The position numbers are program-made. From assembly GCF_053078305.1 (NCBI RefSeq), contig NZ_CP166879.1: a stretch of 64,000 nucleotides of DNA. The stretch is one strand, 5' to 3'. Below are positions 56,401 through 59,400 of this stretch, in pieces. Each line of letters opens with the position of its first letter. Position 1 is the stretch's first letter.

Positions 56401-59400
56401 ACGCGTTGCGGTGGAAGCGGGTATTGCTGACTACTGGTACAAGTATGTTGGCCTGAATGGCGCTATCATCGGTATGACCACCTTCGGTGAGTCAGCTCCG
56501 GCAGAGTTGCTGTTTGAAGAGTTCGGTTTCACTGTTGATAACGTTGTTACGAAAGCAAAAGCGCTGCTGTAATCAGTAAGACGTTTTGTGAGAAGGGCCG
56601 CGAAAGCGGCCCTTTAGATTATTGGTAAAGTGCGCGTTGTTCATGTCGGATGCGGCGTGAACGTCTTATCCGACCTACAAGATCGTGCAAATTCAATATA
56701 TTGCAGGAAGTATGTAGGCCTGATAAGCGTAGCGCATCAGGCAGTTTTGCTTTTGCCATCACTCTCAAGGGCCGCGAAAGCGGCCCTTTTTTTACTTAGT
56801 AGAGATAAACGGAACTGTGCTGCCGGGGATCATGGTATCGGGCAGTTTACCGTCCCAACGTTCGGCAGTGGTGAGGGCTACAAGTCCGGGATTATCCCGC
56901 AGAGCTTCACCGCGCAGGCGGATTGCTTCTGCTTCAGCCGCACTTTTTAAACGAATAGTTTCAGCCTCTGCCGCGCCTCTTACGCGAATAGTTTCCGCTT
57001 CTGCTTTGGCTGCCGCCAGTTTACTGTCTGCTTCTGCCTGGGCCTGAGTTACCGCTATTTGCGCCTGGATTTTCTCTGTTTCCAGATTTTGCTTACGCGT
57101 GGCAATGGCGACTTCTGCTTTCATTCGGTCTTCAATCGACTTTTCATAAGCGTCAGAAAAATCAATATTTTCAATCTGGACCCCGTCAATTACCACTGGC
57201 CCAACAACGGCTTTGCGCATGGCATTTTGCAGATCCTGAACCAGTTTTGTACGATCCTGTACAGCGCTGATGGCGGTATATTGGCCGAAAACGTTCTCCA
57301 GTTGAGTTGGCAACTGACGGACAATCAGACGATCTTTTAATGCTTCAATGGTGTTGTAGGTGGTATAAACCGCGCCTGCTTCTGAAGGTTTAATGTGGAA
57401 GCTGACTGATACTGTCATTTGTGCCGGTTGCTGGTCGCGGCTGTAGGCCTGTAATCCCTGATAGACCACAGCCTGATTACGCGTGGAAATTTTTTCCACG
57501 CTTTCCATAAACGGGATCTTAAAACCCAGACCCGGCTCGGCAACTTTTACGATTTTTCCGTAGCGCAGCAAAATGCCGCGTTCACCTTCATTAACGGTGT
57601 AATACGAGAGAAATGGCAGCACAACCACGGCAAGCACGCCAATGGCGATAGCAAGAGATTTTTGTGGGCGAAATGAGGTTAATGAAACAGGTGCTTTCAT
57701 GACAATCTTCCTTGAGTAAAGTGTGGGAATATGTCACATGAGATGAGGAGAAAACAGCCGACAGGTGAGAATTCAGAATCTATAAAGGGGTATAGCGAAA
57801 AAACATTGCATTAGAAAAGTATGTTTTCGAACATTCAATAAATAAATAGAGATATGCATCACAAATACAATAACAAACAAAATGTTGATTTTGTGATAAA
57901 CATAACAAATACAAAGTTGACTTTAAAAATATCAATTTCATATTGTTGTTATTTAAGGTTTTATTATTTTGGTTTATGGGGTTTTTCTTCTCGCGTACCC
58001 AATTGCTTTCATTAAACCGCACGAGTATTTTATTTTTACCGCCGGACGGTACCCTAAAAATAAAATAAGGATAATTTATGCGGCTTAGTGACTATTTTCC
58101 AGAATCATCAATCTCAGTTATACATTCAGCAAAAGATTGGCAGGAAGCTATCGATTTCTCGATGGTATCATTGCTGGATAAAAACTATATCAGCGAGAAT
58201 TACATTCAGGCAATTAAAGATTCCACCATTAACAATGGCCCTTATTATATTCTCGCACCAGGCGTGGCAATGCCTCATGCGCGACCGGAATGTGGGGCGC
58301 TTAAAACCGGGATGTCTTTGACATTACTTGAACAAGGTGTTTATTTTCCGGGGAATGACGAACCAATTAAATTACTCATCGGACTCTCTGCTGCCGATGC
58401 CGATTCGCACATTGGCGCTATTCAGGCGTTAAGTGAATTACTGTGCGAAGAAGAAATACTCGAACAACTCTTAACAGCATCATCAGAAAAACAATTAGCG
58501 GACATTATCAGCCGCGGATAATTACTCTCTCCTCTACAGGATAATATTATGGAAAACAAGTCTGCTCGTGCAAAGGTCCAGGCTTTTGGGGGCTTTTTGA
58601 CTGCAATGGTCATCCCCAATATTGGTGCTTTTATTGCCTGGGGTTTTATTACTGCGTTATTTATTCCCACCGGTTGGCTGCCTAACGAACATTTCGCCAA
58701 AATTGTCGGCCCGATGATTACCTATTTATTGCCCGTGATGATTGGTTCTACCGGTGGTCATCTGGTCGGCGGTAAACGCGGCGCGGTCATGGGCGGAATA
58801 GGTACTATTGGTGTGATCGTCGGCGCAGAGATCCCGATGTTCCTTGGCTCAATGATTATGGGGCCGCTCGGTGGTCTGGTCATAAAATATGTTGATAAGG
58901 CACTGGAAAAACGCATACCTGCCGGTTTTGAGATGGTTATCAATAACTTCTCATTAGGTATCGCGGGGATGCTCCTTTGCCTGCTGGGTTTTGAAGTGAT
59001 CGGCCCGGCGGTGTTAATTGCCAATACTTTCGTCAAAGAGTGTATTGAGGCGCTGGTACATGCGGGTTATCTGCCTCTGCTGTCAGTTATCAATGAACCG
59101 GCGAAAGTGCTTTTCCTTAATAATGCGATCGATCAGGGCGTCTATTATCCGCTGGGAATGCAACAGGCTTCGGTTAACGGTAAATCCATCTTCTTTATGG
59201 TGGCCTCTAACCCAGGTCCGGGCCTGGGGCTGCTGCTGGCGTTTACCTTGTTTGGTAAAGGGATGAGTAAACGTTCTGCGCCCGGGGCGATGATTATTCA
59301 CTTCCTCGGTGGGATCCACGAACTGTATTTCCCATATGTGCTGATGAAGCCGCTGACTATTATTGCCATGATTGCGGGCGGTATGTCTGGCACCTGGATG

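What the first reader, a model, noticed from the sequence alone, without database searches (positions are those of the whole stretch)
56575..58077. SPFH/band-7 gene with coiled-coil tandem repeats inserted between tktA and cmtB, flanked by duplicated terminator hairpins
As I recall K-12, tktA and cmtB are separated by about 300 bp. Here about 1.5 kb intervenes. It holds a 302-aa SPFH-domain membrane protein on the opposite strand, with three tandem 11-aa AEAETIR repeats (33-nt DNA repeats near 56890..57000). The same GGGCCGCGAAAGCGGCCC hairpin occurs on both sides of a REP cluster, and an unusually AT-rich 300 bp (57780..58070) lies upstream of cmtB. SPFH proteins organise membrane microdomains and sometimes accompany stress or defence functions; this copy looks accessory.
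Basis: partly seen in the sequence, partly recalled or inferred. Interest (0 to 1): 0.5.

Follow-up and report, generated by a model that had tools for sequence, protein, structure and literature searches.

The report
Fifth E. coli SPFH gene beside tktA
Between tktA and cmtB this E. coli strain carries an intact, already annotated gene for an HflC/prohibitin-like membrane-scaffold protein that a third of E. coli genomes share; K-12 seems to have lost it rather than this strain having gained it, so the finding is real but ordinary.

Summary
The interval from the tktA stop (56572) to the cmtB start (58078) is 1505 bp, against 313 bp in K-12. It contains a 302-aa minus-strand gene (56792-57700) with a Pfam Band_7/SPFH domain (E 5.6e-32). 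It also has three 11-aa AEAE(T/A)IR units, two identical hairpins around a REP pair, and an AT-rich promoter region.

The interpretation needs correcting. RefSeq already annotates the gene as "prohibitin family protein", and it occurs in 1830 of 5426 complete E. coli genomes. It sits in the same slot next to tktA in E. albertii, E. whittamii, Pseudocitrobacter and Kluyvera, and beside the matching epd block in Klebsiella spallanzanii. It diverges at about the same synonymous rate as its neighbour loiP and is under strong purifying selection (dN/dS 0.02-0.06). It is therefore an old resident probably lost in the K-12 lineage, not an insertion.

The "33-nt DNA repeats" are old (55-73% identical). 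Length did not vary in 59 sampled E. coli genomes. Other genera have two units. I found no NfeD partner, no defence-system match and no conserved neighbour.

The likely product is a periplasm-facing, homo-oligomeric SPFH ring or cage. This rests on structure prediction and charge bias, not on experiment. The hairpin plus REP pair is a 174-bp unit, with one to three hairpin copies in different strains. Interest is low.

The parts
54581..56572 (+). tktA (transketolase 1). Context gene, convergent with the SPFH gene.
   Evidence: ORF; annotated tkt in the identical strain D8. Homology to K-12 stops at its stop codon.
56595..56612 (.). Hairpin copy 1, GGGCCGCGAAAGCGGCCC, followed by only TTT on the + strand.
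56630..56766 (.). Pair of inverted REP sequences (BIME/REPIN-type element). Its central linker at 56679-56721 matches Rfam RF02751 (ES036). Boundaries are approximate, taken by eye from the sequence.
   Evidence: Sequence. Rfam hit of 53.5 bits against a gathering score of 37.6. The REP part matches many places in every E. coli genome.
56769..56795 (+). Hairpin copy 2 plus a run of seven T: a terminator-like site on the tktA strand. It overlaps the SPFH stop codon at 56792-56794.
   Evidence: Terminator scan. A similar single hairpin sits at the same place in Kluyvera.
56792..57700 (-). SPFH/Band 7 gene, 302 aa. Identical to RefSeq WP_000646940.1, 'prohibitin family protein'.
   Evidence: dN/dS 0.02-0.06.
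57602..57658 (-). N-terminal transmembrane anchor, roughly residues 15-33.
   Evidence: Hydropathy maximum. Helix 13-32 in the AlphaFold2 model. Charge bias across homologues.
57071..57598 (-). SPFH domain, residues 35-210.
   Evidence: Pfam PF01145, E 5.6e-32.
56912..57010 (-). Three 11-aa (33-nt) units, residues 231-263, inside the single long helix 183-269.
   Evidence: Escherichia sequences have three units; other genera have two.
57707..57713 (-). Shine-Dalgarno-like AAGGAAG, 6 nt before the ATG.
   Evidence: Read from the sequence. It lies in a block where all but one position is identical across 7 Escherichia sequences.
57701..58077 (.). Divergent AT-rich control region (GC 0.31) between the SPFH gene and cmtB. 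K-12 homology resumes at 58000.
   Evidence: Promoter-like site on the + strand at 57917-57946.
58078..58521 (+). cmtB (PTS mannitol-type IIA component). Context gene.

Best explanation
The interval holds a working, selectively maintained, monocistronic gene for a single-pass inner-membrane protein of the SPFH superfamily. Among proteins with solved structures, its closest relatives are HflC, HflK and the prohibitins.

**Predicted protein (inferred).** It has a short positively charged N-terminus, one transmembrane helix, an SPFH domain, one 87-residue helix and a conserved C-terminal tail. By analogy with the solved SPFH assemblies it most likely forms a homo-oligomeric ring or cage over a patch of inner membrane. 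The charge distribution suggests its bulk lies in the periplasm, as for HflC. The most plausible role is to corral or protect membrane proteins or lipids, possibly by modulating a membrane protease such as FtsH. None of this is shown.

**History.** The gene is an old resident of the slot downstream of tktA in Escherichia and some related Enterobacteriaceae. About two thirds of sequenced E. coli, including K-12, lack it, most probably through loss. It was not inserted in this strain.

**The third 11-aa unit.** This is an old, Escherichia-wide in-frame duplication. Arithmetic suggests it lengthens the long helix by about three turns.

**The hairpins.** They are two copies of the terminator hairpin that lies between the convergent tktA and SPFH genes, placed on either side of a REP pair. 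Hairpin plus REP pair is a 174-bp unit, with one to three hairpin copies in different strains.
For: **Identity of the protein**
- Pfam Band_7, E 5.6e-32.
- Sequence matches to solved structures: HflC 2.4e-13, HflK 9e-11, QmcA 9e-7, prohibitin 3.6e-5.
- AlphaFold2 model with mean pLDDT 81.7 shows the transmembrane helix, the SPFH domain and one long helix.
- Near-full-length Foldseek matches (about 300 aligned columns) to cage-forming chains: HflC 2.5e-17, PHB2 1.4e-15, erlin 3.5e-15.

**The gene is functional**
- dN/dS is 0.02-0.06 from within E. coli out to Kluyvera.
- The ribosome-binding site and upstream blocks are conserved across Escherichia species.

**Old resident of the locus**
- Same slot beside tktA in E. 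albertii, E. whittamii, Escherichia sp., Pseudocitrobacter and Kluyvera; beside epd in Klebsiella spallanzanii.
- dS against E. whittamii, Escherichia sp. and E. albertii is 0.29, 0.21 and 0.71. For loiP the values are 0.40, 0.27 and 0.57.
- Gene GC is 0.49 against 0.485 for the window.

**Topology**
- Mean net charge is +3.3 on the N side of the transmembrane segment and -0.1 on the C side, over 24 homologues.
- The N-terminal 60 residues align with those of HflC. HflC is described as periplasm-exposed (PMC10434171).

**Stand-alone gene**
- No neighbour is conserved across 80 loci.

**Repeats and hairpins**
- for the 11-aa units; for hairpin copy number.
Against: - No experiment or expression data were available.
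- Topology rests only on the positive-inside rule and on analogy with HflC.
- Oligomeric state and any FtsH link are pure analogy.
- The protein scores far below the NCBIfam cut-offs for HflC and HflK, so their function cannot simply be transferred.
- The case for ancestry rests on a few genera. The family is patchy in Enterobacteriaceae and also occurs on plasmids, on an ICE-like element and in jumbo phages, so an ancient acquisition followed by spread through flanking homology cannot be excluded.
- The 235 bp specific to K-12 shows no significant similarity to the gene-bearing allele, so no deletion scar was found.
- VR50 is a mosaic: its gene is 99.7% identical to the window's while its flanks are about 96.6% identical. 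This shows the segment moves between lineages by recombination.
Confidence: 0.7

Rival explanations
1. One reading: the gene is a horizontally acquired accessory insertion into an ancestral, K-12-like tktA-cmtB interval.
For: - It is absent from K-12 and from about 66% of complete E. coli genomes.
- Family members occur on Enterobacter, Kosakonia and Pseudomonas plasmids, on an ICE-like element in Klebsiella oxytoca and in jumbo phages.
- VR50 carries a near-identical gene within more divergent flanks.
Against: - Same slot and orientation next to tktA in several Escherichia species, Pseudocitrobacter and Kluyvera.
- dS is comparable to that of flanking loiP.
- GC content is ordinary.
- No integrase or transposase lies at the borders, and no direct repeat brackets the segment.
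- The mobile copies are only 50-74% identical to it, so they are not its source.
Confidence: 0.15
2. It is a cytoplasm-facing stomatin/flotillin-type microdomain scaffold like QmcA or YqiK, with its NfeD partner encoded elsewhere.
For: - It belongs to the SPFH superfamily.
- It matches QmcA at E 9e-7 by sequence and 3.2e-12 by fold.
Against: - The best matches are HflC and HflK, not QmcA.
- Positive charges lie on the N side of the transmembrane segment. From memory, QmcA has the opposite arrangement.
- No NfeD gene, and no other conserved gene, lies adjacent in any of 80 loci.
Confidence: 0.15
3. It is part of a stress or anti-phage defence module.
For: Only the general association of some SPFH proteins with such functions, plus relatives in phages and on mobile elements.
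Against: - No PADLOC model matches.
- The neighbours are tktA, loiP and the cmt PTS operon.
- No partner is conserved across 80 loci.
- The gene is vertically stable at a core metabolic locus.
Confidence: 0.03
4. It is a decaying, functionless remnant. The coiled-coil repeats and antisense ORFs would then be noise.
For: Pseudogene alleles exist: an internal stop in strain E4, a frameshifted 311-aa form P0015 and a 25% fragment (H100).
Against: - dN/dS is 0.02-0.06 over deep divergences.
- 1818 of 1830 carrier genomes hold at least 80% of the gene.
- Invariant residues run along the whole protein.
Confidence: 0.02

Closest known systems
HflC / HflK (E. coli FtsH modulators; PDB 7vhp, 7vhq, 7wi3, 9cz1)
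   Same: - Best sequence and fold matches.
- Same domain order: N-terminal signal-anchor, SPFH domain, long helix.
- The N-terminal 60 residues are similar, including (V/Y)xVxEGERG.
- The same N-in/C-out topology is predicted.
- No NfeD partner.
   Different: - Scores are far below the equivalog cut-offs: 60.5 against 134.4 bits for HflC and 37.4 against 159.4 for HflK.
- It is a single gene with no adjacent paralogue, so a homo-oligomer is expected rather than an HflK/HflC hetero-oligomer.
- It lies at the tktA locus, not (from memory) in the hfq-hflX-hflK-hflC operon.
- It has a distinct conserved C-terminal motif, ERWDGKLPxTMIPGxxVPFI.
- Binding to FtsH is untested.
Prohibitins: eukaryotic PHB1/PHB2, and the 'prokaryotic prohibitins', subfamily SPFH4 of Hinderhofer et al. 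2009 (PMC2636767)
   Same: - RefSeq names it 'prohibitin family protein'.
- Fold match to human PHB2 at 1.4e-15 over about 300 columns.
- Similar size and domain order.
- The predicted orientation, away from the cytoplasm, would match what I recall of mitochondrial prohibitins facing the intermembrane space (from memory).
   Different: - Sequence similarity to prohibitins is weak (E 3.6e-5 and 3.9e-4) and lower than to HflC and HflK.
- PHB1/2 form a hetero-oligomer; this is a single gene.
- The 2009 survey (PMC2636767) states that no bacterial SPFH4 member had been investigated, and I found no later study of this gene.
QmcA-YbbJ and YqiK-YqiJ (E. coli stomatin/flotillin-like SPFH proteins with NfeD partners)
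   Same: SPFH superfamily, N-terminal membrane anchor, cage-forming fold.
   Different: - No adjacent NfeD gene.
- The opposite topology is predicted (PMC10434171 for the orientation of QmcA and YqiK).
- Similarity is weaker than to HflC and HflK.
BIME / REPIN elements of E. coli (REP pairs). Rfam RF02751 (ES036) models the linker.
   Same: Two inverted REP sequences with a central linker that matches RF02751 above its gathering score. The element lies in a 3' intergenic region between convergent genes.
   Different: The element is bracketed by two full copies of the local terminator hairpin. Hairpin plus element behaves as a 174-bp tandem unit with variable copy number. I did not establish whether this arrangement is common for other REP pairs.

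Membership tests
SPFH / Band 7 superfamily (Pfam PF01145) | Significant match to the SPFH domain profile | tested here: met
   E 5.6e-32, model positions 2-176 of 176.
SPFH / Band 7 superfamily (Pfam PF01145) | N-terminal hydrophobic membrane anchor and a C-terminal long helix or coiled coil | tested here: met
   Hydropathy peak at residues 15-33. AlphaFold2 helices at 13-32 and 183-269.
SPFH / Band 7 superfamily (Pfam PF01145) | Assembly into a large oligomeric ring or cage | not testable with these tools
   Only a monomer model was made. The near-full-length fold matches are to chains taken from cage structures.
HflC (NCBIfam TIGR01932 / NF008259, equivalog) | Score at or above the curated cut-off | tested here: not met
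   60.5 bits against a cut-off of 134.4; 53.2 against 427.
HflK (NCBIfam TIGR01933 / NF008181, equivalog) | Score at or above the curated cut-off | tested here: not met
   37.4 bits against 159.4; 35.7 against 660.
HflK/HflC system | Two adjacent paralogous genes forming a hetero-oligomer | tested here: not met
   Single gene between tktA and cmtB. No second SPFH gene appears as a conserved neighbour in 80 loci.
SPFH-NfeD operons (stomatin/flotillin type: QmcA-YbbJ, YqiK-YqiJ) | Adjacent nfeD gene | tested here: not met
   The only ORFs between tktA and cmtB are the gene itself and ORFs overlapping it. No conserved neighbour in 80 loci.
SPFH-NfeD operons (stomatin/flotillin type: QmcA-YbbJ, YqiK-YqiJ) | Cytoplasm-facing SPFH domain | tested here: inconclusive
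   Charge bias predicts the opposite, N-in/C-out. This is a rule of thumb, not a measurement.
Prohibitin family (RefSeq name; SPFH4 of PMC2636767) | Closer to prohibitins than to other SPFH subfamilies | tested here: inconclusive
   RefSeq applies the name. By sequence, HflC and HflK score better than prohibitins. By fold, HflC, PHB2 and erlin score almost equally. The subfamily HMMs and cut-offs of the 2009 paper were not available.
Anti-phage defence systems (PADLOC-DB 2.0) | Match to any defence-protein model | tested here: not met
   0 families at E up to 0.01.
BIME / REP pair | Two inverted REP palindromes with a family-typical linker | tested here: met
   Sequence. The linker matches RF02751 at 53.5 bits against a gathering score of 37.6. 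The REP part matches a median of 19 places per E. coli genome.
Mobile insertion (genomic islet) | Mobility genes, target-site duplications or atypical composition at the borders | tested here: not met
   No integrase or transposase ORF. No direct repeat brackets the 56574-57999 segment. Gene GC 0.49 against 0.485 for the window.

The most novel reading that the evidence does not exclude
A third of E. coli genomes carry a fifth SPFH assembly that has never been studied, because K-12 lacks it. From memory, the carriers include the B2 and F lineages that cause most extraintestinal infections. On this reading it would be a periplasm-facing, homo-oligomeric prohibitin/HflC-like cage, acting alongside or instead of HflKC in FtsH-linked membrane-protein quality control. 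It would then affect traits tied to HflKC, such as aminoglycoside or oxidative-stress tolerance and respiration. The Escherichia-specific extra 11-residue unit would change the dimensions of the cage.
Probability: 0.25. Interest if true: 0.4.

Novelty: already known. Interest (0 to 1): 0.18.

Why it matters
Mostly as a correction. Papers in the field say E. coli has four SPFH genes (yqiK, qmcA, hflK, hflC; PMC10434171, PMC12839154). That holds for K-12 but not for the 1830 of 5426 complete genomes that carry this fifth gene. Studies of SPFH redundancy in clinical strains should take it into account.

The locus is also a clean example of why absence from K-12 is not evidence of insertion. Outgroup synteny and flank-matched divergence point to loss.

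Nothing here opens a long-standing question.

Tried and rejected
- **Defence role.** PADLOC gave no hit, so I dropped it.
- **Conserved partner gene.** I clustered all ORFs within about 2.5 kb of the gene in 80 loci. The only clusters shared across many loci were the gene itself and ORFs overlapping it on the opposite strand. All other clusters were confined to 11 or fewer loci, all Shewanella.
- **Deletion scar in K-12.** The 235 bp specific to K-12 shows no significant similarity to window 57701-57999 (local score 28; 20 of 500 shuffles reached it) or to the rest of the extra DNA. The MAFFT alignment of the two AT-rich regions should therefore not be read as homology upstream of 58000.
- **Recent DNA tandem repeat.** Tandem Repeats Finder found no period-33 array and the units are 55-73% identical, so I rejected a recent or unstable repeat.
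- **Repeat-number variation in E. coli.** None was seen in the 59 sampled full-length hits.
- **Promoter for the SPFH gene.** The consensus sigma-70 scan found nothing on the minus strand. By eye I saw a TATAGA and a TCTGA in a conserved block but no convincing -35 element, so I make no promoter claim.
- **Literature.** Five searches by family name, accession, locus tag and gene neighbours found no paper on this gene. PMC12928451 mentions tktA only in connection with an unrelated island.
- **RNA families.** Rfam found nothing in the AT-rich region, only REP-related hits.
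Full report
**What is there**

The window is E. coli. The region is 100% identical to strain D8.

| Feature | Window coordinates | Strand |
|---|---|---|
| loiP | 53545-54303 | - |
| tktA | 54581-56572 | + |
| 1505-bp interval | 56573-58077 | |
| cmtB | 58078-58521 | + |
| cmtA, yggP | downstream of cmtB | + |

K-12 MG1655 has 313 bp and no gene between tktA and cmtB.

K-12 homology stops at the tktA stop codon and resumes at window 58000. The two alleles differ by a replacement: 1426 bp here against 235 unrelated bp in K-12. 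The K-12 segment is not significantly similar to anything in the extra DNA.

**The gene**

A 302-aa ORF lies on the minus strand at 56792-57700. AAGGAAG lies 6 nt before its ATG.

- Pfam gives Band_7/SPFH over residues 35-210, E 5.6e-32.
- NCBIfam gives only sub-threshold matches to HflC (60.5 bits, cut-off 134.4) and HflK (37.4 bits, cut-off 159.4).
- Against solved structures, the best sequence matches are HflC 2.4e-13, HflK 9e-11, QmcA 9e-7 and prohibitins 3.6e-5 and 3.9e-4.
- RefSeq already annotates it as "prohibitin family protein", WP_000646940.1.

An AlphaFold2 model built on 24 homologues has mean pLDDT 81.7. It shows a transmembrane helix at 13-32, an alpha/beta SPFH domain at 33-181, one continuous helix at 183-269 and a low-confidence tail.

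Foldseek against the PDB gives matches over about 300 aligned columns to chains from cage-forming SPFH assemblies:

| Chain | E-value |
|---|---|
| HflC (7vhq_G) | 2.5e-17 |
| PHB2 | 1.4e-15 |
| erlin1/2 | 3.5e-15 |
| HflK | 3.4e-14 |
| stomatin | 1.1e-13 |
| QmcA | 3.2e-12 |

**The 11-aa repeats**

Residues 231-263 read AKAEAETIRVR / GAAEAETIRLK / SAAEAEAIRLR.

At the DNA level the three 33-nt units are 73%, 55% and 58% identical. Tandem Repeats Finder does not report them. This is an old duplication, not a live tandem repeat.

In a 24-sequence alignment, almost all Escherichia sequences have three units. The exceptions are a few deletion or frameshift variants (P0011, P0014, P0015). Kluyvera, Klebsiella, Kosakonia, Erwinia, Mixta, Salmonella and Pseudomonas homologues have two.

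Within E. coli the length is fixed. All 59 full-length hits in a spread sample of 60 genomes span exactly 909 bp.

The units lie in the C-terminal third of the single long helix. Eleven residues are about three helical turns. The extra unit should therefore lengthen the helix by about 16 Å without changing which face of the helix points where. This is inference, not shown.

**Distribution and history**

The gene alone matches 1830 of 5426 complete E. coli genomes, almost always as one chromosomal copy. Carriers include IAI39, S88 and an O25b:H4-ST131 strain. Non-carriers include K-12, MC1061, strain C122, O157:H7 and O55:H7. From memory, the carriers are phylogroups F and B2 and the non-carriers are A and E. 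I did not compute phylogroups.

Outside E. coli the gene sits in the same orientation directly downstream of tktA in these species:

- E. albertii
- E. whittamii
- an unnamed Escherichia species
- Pseudocitrobacter vendiensis
- Kluyvera intermedia

In Kluyvera and in Klebsiella spallanzanii the promoter side abuts epd-pgk-fbaA-mscS. In K-12, yggC, fumE, yggF, yggP, cmtA and cmtB lie between epd and tktA.

| Window compared with | dS, SPFH gene | dS, loiP | dS, tktA |
|---|---|---|---|
| E. whittamii | 0.29 | 0.40 | 0.25 |
| Escherichia sp. | 0.21 | 0.27 | 0.20 |
| E. albertii | 0.71 | 0.57 | 0.25 |

For Pseudocitrobacter and Kluyvera, dS is saturated for both the SPFH gene and loiP. dN/dS for the SPFH gene is 0.015-0.059 throughout. 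Gene GC is 0.49 against 0.485 for the window.

This points to an old, vertically transmitted, selectively maintained gene that was lost in the lineage that contains K-12. It does not look like an insertion in this strain.

Three caveats apply.

- The family is patchy in Enterobacteriaceae.
- More distant members are mobile: 50-74% identical copies lie on Enterobacter, Kosakonia and Pseudomonas plasmids, on an ICE-like element in K. oxytoca and in GAP32-like jumbo phages.
- VR50 carries a gene 99.7% identical to the window's within flanks that are about 96.6% identical. The segment therefore also moves between E. coli lineages by homologous recombination.

Pseudogene alleles exist: an internal stop in strain E4, a frameshifted P0015 and a 25% remnant.

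**Likely mechanism (inferred)**

Over 24 homologues, the segment before the transmembrane helix has a mean net charge of +3.3. The 15 residues after it have -0.1. By the positive-inside rule this gives N-in/C-out. That is the orientation described for HflC and HflK, and the opposite of QmcA and YqiK (PMC10434171).

The N-terminal 60 residues also align with those of HflC. No gene is conserved next to it across 80 loci from gamma- and alpha-proteobacteria. There is no NfeD and no second SPFH paralogue.

The best-supported model is therefore a homo-oligomeric, periplasm-facing SPFH ring or cage on the inner membrane. It would resemble HflKC and prohibitins in architecture but would be a distinct family.

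Its cargo or partner is unknown. Modulation of FtsH is the obvious hypothesis, by analogy only. I put the periplasmic cage at about 0.6 and an FtsH link at about 0.3.

The invariant C-terminal residues (L286, P287, P292, P297, F298) fall in the part of the monomer model with low confidence. That would fit a segment that folds only within the oligomer. This is inference.

**Hairpins and the REP pair**

GGGCCGCGAAAGCGGCCC occurs at 56595-56612 and 56769-56786 and nowhere else in the 64 kb. Between the two copies lie two inverted REP sequences. Their linker matches Rfam RF02751 (ES036) above its gathering score.

The second hairpin is followed by seven T on the tktA strand and is called terminator-like. 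It overlaps the SPFH stop codon.

| Source | Arrangement between the tktA and SPFH stop codons |
|---|---|
| Kluyvera | One similar hairpin, no REP pair |
| Pseudocitrobacter | 48-bp gap, too short for a REP pair |
| E. albertii | Hairpin, REP pair, hairpin, with the second hairpin diverged |
| E. coli GTEN_23, E4 | One hairpin |
| This window, D8, elppa5 | Two hairpins (elppa5's first copy has diverged) |
| E. coli O17_K12a | Three hairpins, at exact 174-bp spacing |

The unit of hairpin plus REP pair varies in copy number between strains. How the second hairpin copy first arose is unexplained.

**The AT-rich region**

The 377-bp SPFH-cmtB intergenic region has GC 0.31, and 57800-57999 falls to 0.245. 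K-12's 313-bp intergenic region has GC 0.33. AT-richness therefore belongs to the cmtB control region and does not mark foreign DNA.

An alignment of seven Escherichia sequences shows these conserved blocks:

- the ribosome-binding region
- ATGTGACATATTCC
- TATAGATTCTGAAT
- an imperfect palindrome, ATGTT-N4-AACAT, at window 57821-57834
- the -35-like TTGACT of a predicted cmtB promoter

I make no promoter claim for the SPFH gene.

**Comparison with what is known, and verdict**

The protein is a member of the SPFH superfamily (tested: met). It is not an HflC or HflK equivalog (tested: not met) and not an NfeD-linked stomatin or flotillin type (tested: not met). RefSeq labels it "prohibitin family". 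That fits the "prokaryotic prohibitins" (SPFH4) of Hinderhofer et al. 2009, which that paper describes as uninvestigated (PMC2636767). I could not test subfamily membership rigorously.

Five literature searches found no study of this gene. Recent papers still describe E. coli as having four SPFH genes (PMC10434171, PMC12839154).

The finding is a correctly observed but ordinary feature: an already annotated, lineage-variable gene of unknown specific function. Novelty: already known. Interest: low.

Noticed in passing
window 56595-56786; loci L012, L013, L015, L003 (intergenic tktA-SPFH): Hairpin plus REP pair forms a 174-bp unit, and E. coli strains carry 1, 2 or 3 hairpin copies. E. albertii already has two, with a diverged second hairpin. 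Kluyvera has a single hairpin and no REP pair. The origin of the second hairpin copy is unexplained.
   Followed up: partly
window 56679-56721 (+): The linker between the two REPs matches Rfam RF02751 (ES036/CssrF sRNA) at 53.5 bits, above the gathering score of 37.6. The Rfam model evidently matches this repeated-element linker.
   Followed up: no
window 57821-57834, and the alignment: An imperfect palindrome, ATGTT-N4-AACAT, lies within a block (TATTGAA.GT.CGAAAA) that is conserved in seven Escherichia sequences upstream of the SPFH gene. It could be a regulator binding site. No regulator was identified.
   Followed up: no
hits H7, H24, H29 and locus L014: The tktA-cmtB interval attracts insertion sequences. 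IS621 is present in one gene-bearing strain. IS1B and IS200C are present in K-12-type intervals. In strain E4 an IS1 truncates cmtB, and the SPFH gene there also has an internal stop.
   Followed up: no
phage records H116-H125; PHROG 200: GAP32-like jumbo phages of Cronobacter, Yersinia, Erwinia and Serratia encode a relative that is 50-53% identical over about 90% of the protein. In total 103 phage records match at E up to 1e-10, including 31 Escherichia phages and 10 Stx2a-converting phages. PHROG 200 is labelled 'lipoprotein'.
   Followed up: no
locus L008 (Klebsiella oxytoca CP136265.1), gene at 5001-5903: A 69-72% identical paralogue lies in an ICE- or plasmid-like context, with genes carrying TraF, HNH, Rrf2, DUF2913 and ArdC/CbtA/N6_Mtase domains. 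Enterobacter and Kosakonia plasmids carry copies that are 71-74% identical.
   Followed up: partly
proteins P0002, P0005, P0014: Small in-frame length variants occur outside the 11-aa units: a 7-aa insertion (QQPATSN) in a Shigella flexneri allele and a QGL duplication in E. albertii. A 22-aa deletion that includes the first 11-aa unit occurs in another E. albertii allele.
   Followed up: no
locus L096 (E. coli VR50), 1-5872, compared with window 45715-53545: VR50 carries a D-glucosaminate PTS island (dagR-dgaE-dagF) next to loiP. The window did not align to it, and K-12's annotation shows speB there instead. Separately, the window has about 900 bp (51294-52228) with no K-12 match.
   Followed up: no
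window 53272-53700: Overlapping ORFs with near-identical translations (MRRERLIRPTFGTRRPDKMRQHRIRQCAQGNKCAI...) suggest another REP array, just downstream of loiP.
   Followed up: no
window 56817-57047 (+) and equivalent positions in 49-51 of the 80 loci: ORFs on the opposite strand, within the alanine/glutamate-rich helix region of the gene, recur across many loci. I take them to be by-products of the repetitive GCN/GAA codons, not genes.
   Followed up: partly
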